A stretch of DNA of 64,000 nucleotides, taken from Eledone cirrhosa. Lineage: Eukaryota. The translations under genes were made by a program, and so were the position numbers. The DNA is taken from positions 220,720,001-220,784,000 of the forward strand of contig OZ024740.1 in the NCBI GenBank assembly GCA_964016885.1. Reading direction: 5' to 3'. The notes beneath the pieces were generated by a model. The model ran no database searches. It was not told where the DNA came from and saw nothing but the letters and a program-made list of their open reading frames with translations. Positions 40,472 through 64,000 of this stretch are shown here, piece after piece. Each line of letters opens with the position of its first letter. Within the stretch, counting starts at the first letter, position 1.

Positions 40472-40500
<29 letters not shown>

Positions 40501-40505
<5 letters not shown>

Positions 40506-42199
40506 TGGAATAAATGCTCTGAAATAGCGATATATATGTGAATATAGACATAGAATATTCGAAAATATTCTGTATGTTTATAATAAACATTTTGAAGACC
40601 TAATCGCTATAGAATAGAATACGTCACGTATTACAATTAGATTCTCGATAAAAGCAAGGGAAGTAATCTACGCGTTTCATTCTCGTTAGAAATCATCAGG
40701 ACTACATATCCAGTGCTTTTATCGAGAATGACACAGCTAGAGACTTATAGAATACTTAGCTGTGTACAGGAACTGGTTTGAAAGAGCGGTTGCCGGTCCG
40801 GCAGAAATTAGAAATTGGAATAAATGCTCTGAAATAGCGATATATATGTGAATATAGACATAGAATATTCGAAAATATTCTGTATGTTTATAATAAACAT
40901 TTTGAAGACCTAATCGCTATAGAATAGAATACGTCACGTATTACAATTAGATTCTCGATAAAAGCAAGGGAAGTAATCTACGCGTTTCATTCTCGTTAGA
41001 AATCATCAGGACTACATATCCAGTGCTTTTATCGAGAATGACACAGCTAGAGACTTATAGAATACTTAGCTGTGTACAGGAACTGGTTTGAAAGAGCGGT
41101 TGCCGGTCCGGCAGAAATTAGAAATTGGAATAAATGCTCTGAAATAGCGATATATATGTGAATATAGACATAGAATATTCGAAAATATTCTGTATGTTTA
41201 TAATAAACATTTTGAAGACCTAATCGCTATAGAATAGAATACGTCACGTATTACAATTAGATTCTCGATAAAAGCAAGGGAAGTAATCTACGCGTTTCAT
41301 TCTCGTTAGAAATCATCAGGACTACATATCCAGTGCTTTTATCGAGAATGACACAGCTAGAGACTTATAGAATACTTAGCTGTGTACAGGAACTGGTTTG
41401 AAAGAGCGGTTGCCGGTCCGGCAGAAATTAGAAATTGGAATAAATGCTCTGAAATAGCGATATATATGTGAATATAGACATAGAATATTCGAAAATATTC
41501 TGTATGTTTATAATAAACATTTTGAAGACCTAATCGCTATAGAATAGAATACGTCACGTATTACAATTAGATTCTCGATAAAAGCAAGGGAAGTAATCTA
41601 CGCGTTTCATTCTCGTTAGAAATCATCAGGACTACATATCCAGTGCTTTTATCGAGAATGACACAGCTAGAGACTTATAGAATACTTAGCTGTGTACAGG
41701 AACTGGTTTGAAAGAGCGGTTGCCGGTCCGGCAGAAATTAGAAATTGGAATAAATGCTCTGAAATAGCGATATATATGTGAATATAGACATAGAATATTC
41801 GAAAATATTCTGTATGTTTATAATAAACATTTTGAAGACCTAATCGCTATAGAATAGAATACGTCACGTATTACAATTAGATTCTCGATAAAAGCAAGGG
41901 AAGTAATCTACGCGTTTCATTCTCGTTAGAAATCATCAGGACTACATATCCAGTGCTTTTATCGAGAATGACACAGCTAGAGACTTATAGAATACTTAGC
42001 TGTGTACAGGAACTGGTTTGAAAGAGCGGTTGCCGGTCCGGCAGAAATTAGAAATTGGAATAAATGCTCTGAAATAGCGATATATATGTGAATATAGACA
42101 TAGAATATTCGAAAATATTCTGTATGTTTATAATAAACATTTTGAAGACCTAATCGCTATAGAATAGAATACGTCACGTATTACAATTAGATTCTCGAT
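40501..42199 (-). repeat. Left arm of the 310-bp retrozyme-like array (5 full + 1 partial units; ribozyme strand minus)
   Basis: Units start at 40501, 40811, 41121, 41431, 41741, 42051; no differences seen between copies. Confidence 0.97.
40663..40705 (-). ncRNA. Minimal type I hammerhead ribozyme (first of 5 minus-strand copies, every 310 bp to 41903-41945)
   Basis: Same motif on the minus strand; predicted cleavage between 40669 and 40668. Confidence 0.85.
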
Positions 42200-44908
42200 C
42201 CTGTACACAGCTAAGTATTCTATAAGTCTCTAGCTGTGTCATTCTCGATAAAAGCACTGGATATGTAGTCCTGATGATTTCTAACGAGAATGAAACGCGT
42301 AGATTACTTCCCTTGCTTTTATCGAGAATCTAATTGTAATACGTGACGTATTCTATTCTATAGCGATTAGGTCTTCAAAATGTTTATTATAAACATACAG
42401 AATATTTTCGAATATTCTATGTCTATATTCACATATATATCGCTATTTCAGAGCATTTATTCCAATTTCTAATTTCTGCCGGACCGGCAACCGCTCTTTC
42501 AAACCAGTTCCTGTACACAGCTAAGTATTCTATAAGTCTCTAGCTGTGTCATTCTCGATAAAAGCACTGGATATGTAGTCCTGATGATTTCTAACGAGAA
42601 TGAAACGCGTAGATTACTTCCCTTGCTTTTATCGAGAATCTAATTGTAATACGTGACGTATTCTATTCTATAGCGATTAGGTCTTCAAAATGTTTATTAT
42701 AAACATACAGAATATTTTCGAATATTCTATGTCTATATTCACATATATATCGCTATTTCAGAGCATTTATTCCAATTTCTAATTTCTGCCGGACCGGCAA
42801 CCGCTCTTTCAAACCAGTTCCTGTACACAGCTAAGTATTCTATAAGTCTCTAGCTGTGTCATTCTCGATAAAAGCACTGGATATGTAGTCCTGATGATTT
42901 CTAACGAGAATGAAACGCGTAGATTACTTCCCTTGCTTTTATCGAGAATCTAATTGTAATACGTGACGTATTCTATTCTATAGCGATTAGGTCTTCAAAA
43001 TGTTTATTATAAACATACAGAATATTTTCGAATATTCTATGTCTATATTCACATATATATCGCTATTTCAGAGCATTTATTCCAATTTCTAATTTCTGCC
43101 GGACCGGCAACCGCTCTTTCAAACCAGTTCCTGTACACAGCTAAGTATTCTATAAGTCTCTAGCTGTGTCATTCTCGATAAAAGCACTGGATATGTAGTC
43201 CTGATGATTTCTAACGAGAATGAAACGCGTAGATTACTTCCCTTGCTTTTATCGAGAATCTAATTGTAATACGTGACGTATTCTATTCTATAGCGATTAG
43301 GTCTTCAAAATGTTTATTATAAACATACAGAATATTTTCGAATATTCTATGTCTATATTCACATATATATCGCTATTTCAGAGCATTTATTCCAATTTCT
43401 AATTTCTGCCGGACCGGCAACCGCTCTTTCAAACCAGTTCCTGTACACAGCTAAGTATTCTATAAGTCTCTAGCTGTGTCATTCTCGATAAAAGCACTGG
43501 ATATGTAGTCCTGATGATTTCTAACGAGAATGAAACGCGTAGATTACTTCCCTTGCTTTTATCGAGAATCTAATTGTAATACGTGACGTATTCTATTCTA
43601 TAGCGATTAGGTCTTCAAAATGTTTATTATAAACATACAGAATATTTTCGAATATTCTATGTCTATATTCACATATATATCGCTATTTCAGAGCATTTAT
43701 TCCAATTTCTAATTTCTGCCGGACCGGCAACCGCTCTTTCAAACCAGTTCCTGTACACAGCTAAGTATTCTATAAGTCTCTAGCTGTGTCATTCTCGATA
43801 AAAGCACTGGATATGTAGTCCTGATGATTTCTAACGAGAATGAAACGCGTAGATTACTTCCCTTGCTTTTATCGAGAATCTAATTGTAATACGTGACGTA
43901 TTCTATTCTATAGCGATTAGGTCTTCAAAATGTTTATTATAAACATACAGAATATTTTCGAATATTCTATGTCTATATTCACATATATATCGCTATTTCA
44001 GAGCATTTATTCCAATTTCTAATTTCTGCCGGACCGGCAACCGCTCTTTCAAACCAGTTCCTGTACACAGCTAAGTATTCTATAAGTCTCTAGCTGTGTC
44101 ATTCTCGATAAAAGCACTGGATATGTAGTCCTGATGATTTCTAACGAGAATGAAACGCGTAGATTACTTCCCTTGCTTTTATCGAGAATCTAATTGTAAT
44201 ACGTGACGTATTCTATTCTATAGCGATTAGGTCTTCAAAATGTTTATTATAAACATACAGAATATTTTCGAATATTCTATGTCTATATTCACATATATAT
44301 CGCTATTTCAGAGCATTTATTCCAATTTCTAATTTCTGCCGGACCGGCAACCGCTCTTTCAAACCAGTTCCTGTACACAGCTAAGTATTCTATAAGTCTC
44401 TAGCTGTGTCATTCTCGATAAAAGCACTGGATATGTAGTCCTGATGATTTCTAACGAGAATGAAACGCGTAGATTACTTCCCTTGCTTTTATCGAGAATC
44501 TAATTGTAATACGTGACGTATTCTATTCTATAGCGATTAGGTCTTCAAAATGTTTATTATAAACATACAGAATATTTTCGAATATTCTATGTCTATATTC
44601 ACATATATATCGCTATTTCAGAGCATTTATTCCAATTTCTAATTTCTGCCGGACCGGCAACCGCTCTTTCAAACCAGTTCCTGTACACAGCTAAGTATTC
44701 TATAAGTCTCTAGCTGTGTCATTCTCGATAAAAGCACTGGATATGTAGTCCTGATGATTTCTAACGAGAATGAAACGCGTAGATTACTTCCCTTGCTTTT
44801 ATCGATCTAATTGTAATACGTGACGTATTCTATTCTATAGCGATTAGGTCTTCAAAATGTTTATTATAAACATACAGAATATTTTCGAATATTCTATGTC
44901 TATATTCA
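42200..44908 (+). repeat. Right arm of the 310-bp array, inverted (7 full + 2 partial units; ribozyme strand plus)
   Basis: Reverse complement of the left-arm unit with period 310; last copy has a 3-bp deletion near 44805. Confidence 0.97.
42265..42307 (+). ncRNA. Minimal type I hammerhead ribozyme (first of 9 plus-strand copies, every 310 bp to 44745-44787)
   Basis: GUAGUC-CUGAUGA-U-UUCU-AACG-AGAA-U-GAAA-CGCGU-A^GAUUAC: stem I GUAGUC/GAUUAC, stem II UUCU/AGAA, short palindromic stem III ACGCGU, GUA cleavage site after 42301. Confidence 0.85.
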
Positions 44909-45908
44909 TATATATATATATTATTTATTCTTTCCCATTAAAATTATTATAAAAATAATAATCATGTATAACTATTAACATTTTTTTTAGAGAAGGGTCT
45001 CAGCAGGTGAAAGTCCAGACCTGCGTTCAGATGCTTTGTCTGATGCTAACCTATACTCACATGGCTGTCTGATTTAGATGTTTGCAACACAACTATGTGG
45101 TTTTGGGTTCCATCCTACTGTGAGGCATATTAGTTTTCTACTATAGCCTTGAACTGACTAATGCTTTGTGAACAAATTTGGTAGATGGAATCTGTAAGGA
45201 AGTTCACCATCTATATATATATATGAGTGAGTTTAGCACATATGTCTTTATATCAATAATGTTTAAAGCAGCCTGTTACATTTGTTTATATCATGATGTC
45301 AGGAAGGGGATCTCGTTATAGAAATACTTCTTCAAAAACATCTTCTCCAACCCATGCCAGATGTAAAAACAATGGTGATGTTGAAACTCGACTGTTTTAT
45401 AAATATGTACATTTGATAATGTTGTCCAAGATTCACTGTGCCTAATGAAAAGATAGGAGGGAATGTTTTGGATCATAAGCCTGCTCAATCTGGGCTGACC
45501 TAGGGCTAAATAATAATTTTAGGGTCCTTATCATTTTTCTTACTGTCTTTCATTAACCATTAACAGAGAAAAATATCCCCTAATTCTTATTACTTTTTTT
45601 TTTACAAAATATTTTTTCAATTAGTAATTTACAATATATTACAGTAATACCCCAGTTAGTACTCTAGATACGTTTGTAAAAATACAGTGATATACTGGGT
45701 CATTATAATATAACACAAAAAAACCCCACAGCTTGATTGGCTATTTTTAGTAACAATGTAGATACAAATACAGCTGATAGATATCAACAAAAAATTGAAA
45801 AATCTAGAAACTTGTTGCACTCTTCAAGAATTTAATAATTTTAGATATCCTCAAACAATGTGATGTCATACTTTGTGATCTACAATTATGATAAAATTAG
45901 AACATATG

Positions 45909-60519: not shown

Positions 60520-60583
<64 letters not shown>

Positions 60584-60598
60584 ATTTTAATATAGATG

Positions 60599-60649
60599 AG
60601 ATTCTACAGGGCTAGAACTGTTTCATTGTTTAGAAATCATCAGGAATCT
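60599..60649 (-). ncRNA. Type I hammerhead ribozyme in an inverted PLE terminal repeat
   Basis: AGAUUC-CUGAUGA-UUUCUAAACAAU-GAAA-CAG-UUCUAGCC-CUG-UA^GAAUCU: stem I AGAUUC/GAAUCU, stem III ACAG/CUGU, GUA cleavage triplet; stem II weak. Confidence 0.75.
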
Positions 60650-60750
60650 GGCTTTCCAAAAATAAATGTTGTGGTATTTATATCTTTTCAGGTAGTAGGA
60701 GAGGGTGGGGAGTGGGATGGGTAGAGGTGATTGGTTGAAAGAAAAGGGAA

Positions 60751-61094
60751 TTCATTACATCGGCATGACTTCCAATAACTTTAAGACTTGTTGGTATGCC
60801 CATACCCACTCCTTCAGAAGACCGGACAAATCAAACCAGACAACACTCGCTTCCTATGTTTGGGACCTCAAAAGGAACTCCACCCCCTTCACGCTTAAAT
60901 GGAAAATACTCCAGTGAGAATGCTCTTACAACGGAGGACACAAGGGCTGCGACCTTTGTATCTCAGAGAGCTACAAAATTTTATTCGCCAAGGGCCCGCT
61001 ACTGAACAAACTCTCTGAACACTGCCCGAACTGCATGCACAAAAACTTTGCAACTTTCAAATACCTTAAGCCAGTGATAATGCCCGATGGCTGA
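60751..61094 (+). mobile_element. Penelope-like element GIY-YIG endonuclease C-terminal fragment (one TGA stop)
   Basis: HYIGMTSNNFKTCWYAHTHSF...TTLASYVWDLK...FTLKWKIL*...CDLCISE...LLNK.SE..CMHK is the characteristic PLE endonuclease tail. Confidence 0.85.
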
Positions 61095-61489
61095 AAACGA
61101 CTTCCCCCTTTTAGCCTACTTCCTTCCCACCCCACCCCTACCCCTCCTCAACCTGAAACACGGCCACTATGGTTATATAAGTACCTCTTACCTATCTGCA
61201 TTTTCTGCTTGTAGAGCTGTTTTTATGTGCCTGTGTATATGCGTATATTTATGAGTATGTATTTGTATGAGTAGCCGTTCGTTTGTATGCATATCGCTGT
61301 GTGTAGGTGCATTCACATGTCATCTATGTGTGTATATTTATATGTATGTATATATGGTTTTGTGTATGTGTGTGTGTATATGTGTATATATATATGTAAA
61401 TGGAATAGTATGAAACGAAATTTCATTTCTCACTCTTAGTACGGCACTTACTTAAATGTAAGTATGTATGTATACGTACATACATATAT

Positions 61490-61795
61490 GTATACAGACG
61501 TACAGTAGTATGTATATATATATACATACATGCACACATATATACATGCACGTATCGGTTTACCGAACATTTATTATAATGCTCGGTTTGTTTGTTTGTA
61601 AACAAACAAATATATGTCATTGTTGAACAAAAAGGTGACGTGGTTGCCTAAACACTGTACGGCGTAATTCGGGCTGTTTGTTTGTTTACAAACAAACAAA
61701 CCGAGCATTATAATAAATGTTCGGTAAACCGATACGTGCATGTATATATGTGTGCATGTATGTATATATATACATACTACTGTACGTCTGTATAC
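61490..61795. repeat. About 120-bp inverted repeat (61490-61610 / 61677-61795)
   Basis: Arms differ only by one TA unit; 66-bp spacer; abuts the PLE RT fragment. Confidence 0.9.
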
Positions 61796-62781
61796 GTCGG
61801 ACTGGAGGCGTCGGAAGAGGCGGAGGATGGTGCGGTGGAGGGGTATGGTGGAGGGTGGTAGGTGATGGGGAAGGGGAGACGGTGGGTGGGTGTGCGGTGG
61901 CGTGGGGTGAGGGTGGTGGAGCGGTGGACAGCACGGGCGCGGGTGAGAGCGGCTTGGACGAGAGATGGGGGGGGGGGGGTAACCTCTGCGGATGAAATGG
62001 CTGACTAGGGAAAGGGCCTGGGACTCAAAGTCAGCATCTCGGCTACAGAGGCGGCGGATCCTGAGGAGTTGGGAGTAGGGAATAGAGTGTTTAGTGTGTG
62101 TAGGGTGGGAAGAGGTGAAGTCGAGGTAGGAGTGGAAGTCGGTGAGTTTGAAGAAGGCGGAGGTGACGAGGGAGTGGTGGGAGGGGTCGAAGGCGACGGA
62201 GATGTCTAAGAAGTGGACGTGGGTGGTGGAGATAGAGGTGGTGAAGTGGAGGGAGGGGTGGAAGGAGCAGAAGAAGCAGAGAAAGGAGTCGAGCTGTTCT
62301 CGGGTGAGGGTCGTGGCTCCGATAAAGTCGTCGATGAACGACCGTACAGTTCGGGCGTGGGGCCGGTGTACTGGGCAAAGATTTGGGCCTCAACATGGCC
62401 AACAAAAAGGTTGGCATAGTTTGGGCCCATTCTTGTACCCATGGCTACCCCCGTGACCTGTTGGTAAAACTCACCCGAGAAGGAGGAACAATTGAGGGTG
62501 AGGACCAGCTCGGCGAGGCGAAGGAGGGTGGGGGTGGAGGGGATGAGGGAGGGGCGAAGGTCGAGGTAGTGCTTAAGGGCACGTAGGCCGTCGGCGTGGG
62601 GGATGACTGTGTAGAGGGACTTGATATCTAGGGAGAAGAGGAAGGGCTGTGGGTCGGGTGGGAAGGTGAAGGAGTCGATTAGGCGCAGGGCGTGGTTGGT
62701 GTCGGAGATGTGGGAGGGGAGGGTGGTGACAAGGGGGCGAGGATGGAGTCAAGAAAGGCGGAGATGAGTTCGGTGGGGCAT
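61796..62781 (-). mobile_element. Penelope-like element reverse transcriptase fragment (frameshifted)
   Basis: [46 protein letters not shown]...SSHP...SIPYSQLLRIRRLCS are PLE RT motifs. Confidence 0.9.
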
Positions 62782-62907
62782 AATGTATATATGTGTGTAT
62801 ATATATATGTATATATGTATATATATATGTGTGTATGTATGTGCATATGTATGTATATGTGTATATATATATGTATATATATATATGTATATATATGTAT
62901 ATATATG

Positions 62908-63908: not shown

Positions 63909-63976
<68 letters not shown>

Positions 63977-64000
63977 GTTATTCCGGGTTGAATCGGAGGT

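What the first reader, a model, noticed from the sequence alone, without database searches (positions are those of the whole stretch)
60590..61200. Penelope fragment with a hammerhead sharing the retrozyme's unusual core: candidate autonomous partner
Seen: the minus-strand hammerhead at 60599-60649 shares TCCTGATGATTTCTAA (16 nt) and AATGAAAC with the array ribozyme, including a U-U juxtaposition at the base of stem II. Its stems I and III differ but still pair. It lies in a segment inverted relative to a PLE GIY-YIG fragment, with the junction near 60750, one end in (TA)n and the other in TG/TA-rich sequence, which echoes the array's architecture. Established: PLE terminal repeats carry minimal hammerheads. 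Inference: this PLE lineage gave rise to, or mobilises, the 310-bp element.
Basis: partly seen in the sequence, partly recalled or inferred. Interest (0 to 1): 0.75.

Follow-up and report, generated by a model that had tools for sequence, protein, structure and literature searches.

The report
Hydra Penelope end, retrozyme-related ribozyme
This is a broken, back-to-back copy of a jumping-gene family that has intact copies elsewhere in the genome; its predicted self-cutting RNA is likely related to that of a nearby 310-base repeat and has been copied elsewhere into a 78-base satellite, but it is not shown that this family's enzyme is the one that moves the 310-base repeat.

Summary
60585-61401 is one dead, 5'-inverted copy of a Hydra-clade Penelope-like element (family A). 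The hammerhead is that element's own terminal repeat: it lies near 34 of 39 coding copies against 17 of 97 control loci, and 13 of 20 young copies have full 713-aa ORFs. The shared core is not generic: 10/10 non-universal positions match the 310-bp ribozyme, next best 7/10 among 91 family pairs. Family A's ribozyme matches the 310 unit or its 316-bp sister at 18/18 positions, which suggests common ancestry. Against the partner claim: no similarity outside the ribozyme, no PLE sequence at the arm junctions of 61 arrays, a different tail length (about 40 vs 70 nt), U.U also in other ribozymes, and other young Hydra families with the same TA targets and two-end footprint. Also found: family A's hammerhead has itself become a 78-bp satellite (2148 junction matches) that starts inside a two-armed insertion. 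The scan had already noted the arrays' Penelope footprint on other DNA many times, and the retrozyme-PLE link is proposed in print. Verdict: new member of a known kind; family A is the leading but unproven partner (about 0.4).

The parts
60522..60583 (.). (TA)n tract, insertion target at the left end
   Evidence: family ends abut (TA)n
60585..60757 (-). Inverted arm: last ~170 nt of family A's terminal repeat (pLTR), ending at the family's short end (cut site +20)
60599..60649 (-). Type I hammerhead pattern; predicted cut after the GUA at 60605; stem II weakened by a private G>C change
60755..60757 (.). Head-to-head junction of the two arms, 3-nt TTA microhomology
60756..61094 (+). C-terminal 112 codons of the ORF (YIG half of the GIY-YIG endonuclease, CDLC..E..N..CMH), in-frame TGA at 60915
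   Evidence: 92% to a young intact ORF
61095..61401 (+). Start of the 3'UTR running into the element's internal TG/TA tract; the downstream terminal repeat is missing (no + strand copy up to window coordinate 110,000)
40499..44917 (.). 310-bp retrozyme array: 5.5 units on -, 8.7 units on +, one long end (unit 273) and one short end (unit 233), in (TA)n
42265..42307 (+). Example array hammerhead: same core as family A plus 2 nt in loop 2, palindromic stem III

Best explanation
The stretch is a dead, two-armed copy of a Hydra-clade Penelope-like retrotransposon whose hammerhead is its own terminal repeat; that ribozyme likely shares an ancestor with the ribozyme of the 310/316-bp retrozyme lineage, and the 310-bp RNA is likely copied by a Hydra-type reverse transcriptase, with this family the leading but unproven candidate. 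Shown: element structure (terminal repeat, 713-aa RT/GIY-YIG ORF, 2.0-3.5 kb TG/TA-rich 3'UTR, terminal repeat), intact young copies, and two fixed ends per insertion in both the PLE and the retrozyme. Inferred by analogy with PMC11167929: the protein cuts both strands of (TA)n, each 3' end primes copying at one of two internal RNA sites, and the two cDNAs join head-to-head by microhomology; on a small circular or multimeric RNA this gives two tandem arms. Inferred: common descent of the ribozyme cores, direction unknown. Untested: self-cleavage, transcription, and which Hydra protein binds the 310-nt RNA (family A about 0.4).
For: pLTR linkage: 15 of 19 older and 19 of 20 young coding copies have the segment in their 10-kb locus, against 10 of 60 retrozyme loci and 7 of 37 loci of other Hydra families; it lies directly upstream of the ORF in 13 of 20 young copies. 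13 of 20 young copies carry a full ORF; 18 of 20 differ by 0-30 nt per 1350 (two with indels could not be compared ungapped). Family A arm ends fall at cut +11 to +28 or +91 to +94. 58 of 61 retrozyme arrays are two-armed with one short and one long end. Core: 10/10 non-universal positions, against at most 7/10 in the other 90 family pairs; no third family with this stem II in the first 100 of 817 pattern hits. Family A matches the 310 ribozyme at 14/18 positions, the 316 U.U variant at 13/18 and one or the other at 18/18, while those two share 9/18; next unrelated family 11/18. Family A's hammerhead has produced a tandem array of its own.
Against: No similarity between the pLTR and the 310 unit outside the ribozyme. 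No PLE sequence at the arm junction of any of 61 arrays. Tail offsets differ: retrozyme about 35-42 nt, A about 70, B 77, C about 100, E/E2/E3 132-144. Families B, C and E3 also have long open frames and near-identical copies. The retrozyme's start-site region scores best against family B, not A, though none is significant (144 and 105 of 1000 shuffles for B; 262 and 269 for A). The 316 lineage already reaches U.U and TTAC/GTAT by itself, one base-pair flip from the 310 stem II, and the loop start YAA is common to several retrozymes, so part of the match may be convergence. The 18 positions are paired, not independent, and were chosen after seeing the data.
Confidence: 0.6

Rival explanations
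1. The two ribozyme cores converged, and the 310-bp element is moved by another Hydra family (B is the best alternative) or by several.
For: Graded series G-C, A-U, U.U at the base of stem II within the retrozyme's own sister lineage; 310 and 316 units are colinear end to end (score 196 vs shuffle mean 50) and keep the same ends despite different ribozymes; family B has the highest end-region score and a similar GCT..AGAGC hairpin after the short end; B, C, E3 are young.
Against: At all six positions outside stem III where the 310 ribozyme differs from the 316 U.U variant (counting the first loop base) it has family A's letter, and the 316 lineage has family A's stem III pairs CAG/CTG. The B similarity is not significant.
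Confidence: 0.25
2. The 310 lineage captured the core of family A's ribozyme by a template switch, replacing its older GUC-type ribozyme, which may help it recruit family A's protein.
For: The match is confined to about 28 nt and includes the loop start TAA seen in the TAAA/TAAT subfamilies, while other family A copies have varied loops. PMC11167929 reports that a PLE hammerhead needs the PLE protein to cleave.
Against: No recombinant intermediate was seen; the oldest 310-type units found (312 bp) already have the full 310-type ribozyme; the sister lineage also resembles family A in stem III; insertion ends did not change with the ribozyme; in PMC11167929 ribozyme mutants did not affect insertion.
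Confidence: 0.12
3. The 310-bp unit is a recent direct derivative of this element's terminal repeat, as proposed for Xenopus retrozymes.
For: Shared core; family A can form tandem hammerhead arrays.
Against: No alignment outside the ribozyme; the real pLTR-derived tandem is a 78-bp unit mostly 90-99% identical to the pLTR, not the 310-bp unit.
Confidence: 0.03

Closest known systems
Hydra clade of C-terminal EN+ Penelope-like elements, incl. Hydra-1_Obim (Craig et al. 2021, PMC8557442; passages, section 11 and supplement search read)
   Same: Single RT + C-terminal GIY-YIG ORF, DKT, CxCX5C linker, CxxC/CxH around E and N, hammerhead in the terminal repeat, (TA)n targets, 5' inversion and one-sided tail.
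   Different: RWR for RWK; about 5-6.5 kb long because of a 2.0-3.5 kb TG/TA-rich 3'UTR (published ones mostly under 3 kb); tail about 70 nt rather than 30-40; by eye a different family from Hydra-1_Obim, with a compact U.U-based ribozyme.
Animal non-LTR retrozymes (Cervera and de la Pena 2020, PMC7229834; parts 2-3 of 6 and passages read)
   Same: 310-bp non-coding tandem unit with a type I hammerhead and palindromic stem III; U.U at the base of stem II as in axolotl HHR_Amex2; PLEs proposed as mobilisers.
   Different: Here the arrays are dispersed two-armed insertions with two fixed ends; 'inverted' does not occur in that paper's main text. Expression and circles are not tested here.
Retrozymes as PLE pLTR derivatives (Li, Clavereau, Pollet 2026, bioRxiv 10.64898/2026.07.22.740005; parts 1-3 of 5 read, supplements not seen)
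   Same: Proposes origin from and mobilisation by PLEs; units of 51-972 bp.
   Different: Vertebrate-focused, based on pLTR homology and co-occurrence. The 310 unit has no pLTR homology beyond the ribozyme core; the 78-bp satellite does fit their scenario of a PLE end amplifying locally.
Poseidon PAc of Anolis, in vitro (Frangieh et al. 2024, PMC11167929; parts 1-2 of 4 read)
   Same: Both strands cut in AT-rich DNA; two internal RT start sites whose spacing is the genomic tail.
   Different: Other clade; no trans-mobilised RNA tested; start sites lie inside the ORF there, upstream of the ATG here.

Membership tests
Hydra-clade PLE | Single ORF, RT followed by C-terminal GIY-YIG | tested here: met
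   713-714 aa ORF in 13 of 20 young copies with YRDD and YIG; Pfam GIY-YIG only E 0.089, below cut-off
Hydra-clade PLE | DKG changed to DKT | tested here: met
   SSDKTKN
Hydra-clade PLE | RWK motif | tested here: inconclusive
   RWR in family A; RWK in families B, C, E, E3
Hydra-clade PLE | CxCX5C linker; CxxC and CxH either side of E and N | tested here: met
   CNCLNKETC; CDLC..E..N..CMH
Hydra-clade PLE | No CCHH motif in the endonuclease core | tested here: met
   No CxxC between the GIY and YIG halves; a second Cys eight residues on is not conserved (Arg in L079); read by eye
Hydra-clade PLE | Hammerhead in the terminal repeat; (TA)n insertion | tested here: met
Hydra-clade PLE | Generally short (<3 kb) | tested here: not met
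   3'UTR tract of 2.0-3.5 kb in 14 measured copies; a tendency in the paper, not a diagnostic
Hydra-clade PLE | Placement in an RT tree with published Hydra references | not tested
   Reference sequences were only viewed; no tree built
Non-LTR retrozyme (310-bp unit) | Tandem non-coding units each with a complete type I hammerhead | tested here: met
   4190 exact matches to the 40-nt ribozyme; 114 of 165 units identical to the window unit, 32 partial or with indels
Non-LTR retrozyme (310-bp unit) | Self-cleavage and circular RNA | not testable with these tools
pLTR-derived retrozyme of family A (310-bp unit) | Homology to the pLTR beyond the ribozyme | tested here: not met
pLTR-derived tandem hammerhead repeat (78-bp satellite) | Homology to the pLTR and consecutive units with complete ribozymes | tested here: met
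   89-99% to pLTR positions 437-515; intact pattern in 6 of 7 and 13 of 28 units of two loci
Non-autonomous partner of family A | Same RT start signal or chimeric insertions | tested here: inconclusive
   Same two-end rule but different spacing; 0 of 61 arrays chimeric; end regions not significantly alike

The most novel reading that the evidence does not exclude
Family A is both the source and the driver: its hammerhead seeded the 310/316-bp retrozyme lineage long ago, seeded a 78-bp ribozyme satellite more recently inside one of its own two-armed insertions, and its intact protein copies the 310-nt circle today. That would give a named PLE-retrozyme pair with successive stages of retrozyme birth in one genome, testable with a purified protein.
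Probability: 0.3. Interest if true: 0.75.

Novelty: new member of a known kind. Interest (0 to 1): 0.48.

Why it matters
Which enzyme moves animal retrozymes has been proposed (PLEs) but, in the five papers read, not shown for a named pair. Here a very young retrozyme with PLE-type ends sits beside a short list of intact Hydra proteins, one of which carries the nearest ribozyme, so the question reduces to a small in vitro panel. The 78-bp satellite is a direct fossil of a PLE terminal ribozyme turning into a tandem repeat, the birth step proposed in the 2026 preprint. The locus itself is an ordinary dead copy.

Tried and rejected
Rfam scan of the window: nothing. DNA search of the genome with the 310 unit returned nothing, not even the window's own array, because common words are skipped; replaced by patterns. 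Pfam: no family above cut-off for the ORF or the window pieces. Protein homologue search: 594 relatives, best 120 at 38-54% identity and almost all unnamed; not used further. Sequencing-run search for the PLE junction: no RNA holder listed; laying three contig-only runs of unknown kind says nothing on expression, but its joint table gave the lead to the 78-bp unit. An apparent TCTATATT..GCTAT likeness between the family A tail and the retrozyme ends is within shuffles. The tail-hairpin lead from earlier notes: an xCTC..GAGY stem lies 4-7 nt after one of the two ends in all six Hydra families (short end in A and B, long end in C, E, E2, E3), but after both ends in none by my pattern, and the 310 and 316 units have no exact copy, so it does not assign the partner. 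Tail length as a family fingerprint: no family matches. Search for the window copy's missing right terminal repeat to coordinate 110,000: none on +. The idea that the hammerhead segment is a foreign piece fused to the PLE: rejected. Minimum-energy folds of the isolated ribozymes do not give the hammerhead shape for either family, so activity cannot be read from folding.

Full report
Observation. The minus strand at 60649-60599 has a complete type I hammerhead pattern with the predicted cut after the GUA at 60605. Its core aligns to the 310-bp array ribozyme over 28 nt, and 0 of 500 shuffles reach that score. On the plus strand, 60756-61091 encodes the second half of a GIY-YIG domain with one in-frame stop at 60915. 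The arms meet at a 3-nt microhomology at 60755-60757. This copy's stem II is damaged by a G>C change; most family copies read TTTCTAAAGAAT or TTTCTAATGAAT, the retrozyme's TTTCTAACGAGAAT without two loop bases.

What the element is. Both arms are high-copy: 2528 and 1633 first-look candidates. In 10-kb loci around 19 of the top older GIY-YIG copies, the hammerhead segment lies downstream on the same strand in 13, inverted upstream in 11 and somewhere in 15; around 20 young copies picked for long open frames or identical scores the figures are 17, 9 and 19, and in 13 it lies directly upstream of the ORF. Controls: 10 of 60 retrozyme loci and 7 of 37 loci of other Hydra families. So the segment is the element's own pseudo-LTR. 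The full element is pLTR, a 713-aa RT/GIY-YIG ORF, a 2.0-3.5 kb TG/TA-rich 3'UTR and pLTR. Thirteen of the 20 young copies have a full ORF and several pairs are identical over 1350 nt, so the family is likely recently active. The window copy is older (92% to a young ORF), has lost its right pLTR, and its TG/TA side is internal UTR, not target. Motifs (DKT, CxCX5C, CxxC/CxH, no CCHH, TA targets) fit the Hydra clade as described in section 11 of PMC8557442; RWK is RWR, and no tree with published references was built. Hydra-1_Obim in that paper's supplement has the same layout but is, by eye, another family.

How it inserts. Family A arm ends lie either 11-28 or 91-94 nt past the ribozyme cut site, and two-armed copies such as L076, L082, L106, L110, L113 and L116 have one of each. 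PMC11167929 shows for a Poseidon PLE that both strands are cut and that two internal start sites explain such tails. The window copy is the short-ended left arm plus a truncated right arm. The 310-bp arrays follow the same rule: 58 of 61 are minus-then-plus with one end at unit 229-242 and the other at 266-276; 3 are single-armed, one of them at an assembly gap. Fifty loci were picked by a long-end pattern and one is the window's; of the 10 picked without regard to ends, 9 show the rule. Units are nearly identical across loci and the ribozyme has 4190 exact matches. Earlier notes of this scan report the same footprint; they are not independent support.

Is the core generic? No. A descriptor scan of 1.68 Mb of fetched, partly overlapping loci found 1102 hits (1 in shuffled sequence) in 14 clusters seen at two or more loci. 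At ten non-universal core positions the 310 ribozyme and family A match 10/10; the other 90 pairs reach at most 7. A genome pattern for the same stem II with other stem III starts gave 817 hits; about 90 of the 100 listed are recognisable by eye as decayed family A copies with varied loops, and no third family recurs (the pattern covers only part of the possible stem III starts). U.U alone is not special: the 470-bp retrozyme has it and so does axolotl HHR_Amex2. GUA is also the triplet in families B, E and E3.

Origin. Outside the ribozyme the pLTR and the 310 unit do not align better than shuffles, so recent derivation is rejected. The 310 unit is instead colinear with a 316-bp lineage whose ribozymes form a series with G-C, A-U or U.U at the base of stem II, a GUC triplet and a CAG/CTG stem III. 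Family A sits between the two: 14/18 with the 310 ribozyme, 13/18 with the U.U variant, 18/18 with one or the other, while they share 9/18; eleven other families score 4-11. The simplest reading is that all three descend from one ribozyme, in either direction. The caveats are real: positions are paired and chosen after the fact, the sister lineage gets within one base-pair flip of the shared stem II by itself, and the loop start is common among retrozymes. I put common descent or capture at about 0.7 and convergence at about 0.3.

Mobiliser. Not assigned. Five other Hydra families were sampled (B, C, E, E2, E3); all target (TA)n with two fixed ends, and B, C and E3 have long open frames and near-identical copies. 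At least two more families seen were not followed up. End spacing is family-specific (about 70, 77, 100, 132-144 nt) and none equals the retrozyme's 35-42. Junctions of the 61 arrays hold only microhomology or inserts of up to 24 nt that look retrozyme-derived, no recognisable PLE sequence. The start-site region is closest to family B but within chance. The 310 and 316 lineages keep the same ends with different ribozymes, so the shared core probably does not set the start sites. I estimate 0.85 for a Hydra-type enzyme and 0.4 for family A.

A direct derivative does exist. Joints in public contigs pointed to a tandem of the pLTR ribozyme. The junction pattern has 2148 matches, all on the + strand; the 100 listed are 4 at C1:350.20 Mb and 96 at C28:30.497-30.511 Mb, with none on C2-C27. 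The unit is 78 bp, essentially the TAAA-subfamily hammerhead, the same subfamily type as the window copy's close relatives. At C28 the array begins as (TA)n, a long-ended inverted arm of 153 nt, a head-to-head junction and then the 78-bp units: a family A insertion whose second arm became a satellite. Units have diverged by a few percent, so later DNA-level expansion is likely. The C1 array (about 7.5 units) has no TA flanks or PLE ends, so there is no sign that this unit is mobile.

Comparison and verdict. PLE hammerheads (PMC4209133, passages), Hydra elements, retrozymes and their proposed PLE origin are in print. Five literature searches listed no paper on a Hydra-retrozyme pair or on this satellite, but the library lacks most subscription papers and the preprint's supplements could not be seen. 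The locus is a new member of a known kind. Interest 0.48.

Noticed in passing
G000:C28:30,496,5xx onward (L251-L261) and G000:C1:350,200,2xx-350,200,8xx (L247-L250): 78-bp satellite made of family A's hammerhead; 2148 junction matches, all on +; at C28 it starts as the second arm of a two-armed family A insertion.
   Followed up: partly
window 61413-61776: Two head-to-head pieces of a ~470-bp retrozyme family (its ribozyme elsewhere has U.U, GUA and a palindromic stem III) inserted in the PLE's TG/TA tract; no ribozyme in this copy.
   Followed up: partly
window 63974-64000, continuing to 64548 in L095: Long-ended inverted arm of a second family A insertion, with a full pLTR just beyond the window.
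   Followed up: partly
window 61795-62785, minus strand: Broken reverse-transcriptase fragment that by eye looks like another PLE clade; not tested.
   Followed up: no
L106-L125: Family A carries a 2.0-3.5 kb TG/TA microsatellite-rich tract in its 3'UTR, so it spreads its own target sequence; nested insertions in this tract are common.
   Followed up: partly
L078:1573-2069: The ~500-bp pLTR has an internal ~190-nt duplication at about 75-80% identity.
   Followed up: no
L146-L182: Five other Hydra families with family-specific tails (77-144 nt) and other hammerheads, some with very long stem II or a TTGAAAA core in place of CTGANGA (E, E2).
   Followed up: partly
L149, L233, L138-L145: Subfamilies of the 310 unit (312-bp; loop variants AACA, AATA, AACG; ATTC stem start), uniform within an array, which fits copying from one RNA per insertion.
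   Followed up: no
L084, L092, L223-L242: 316-bp sister lineage with the same insertion ends and a graded series of ribozymes (294 pattern matches).
   Followed up: yes
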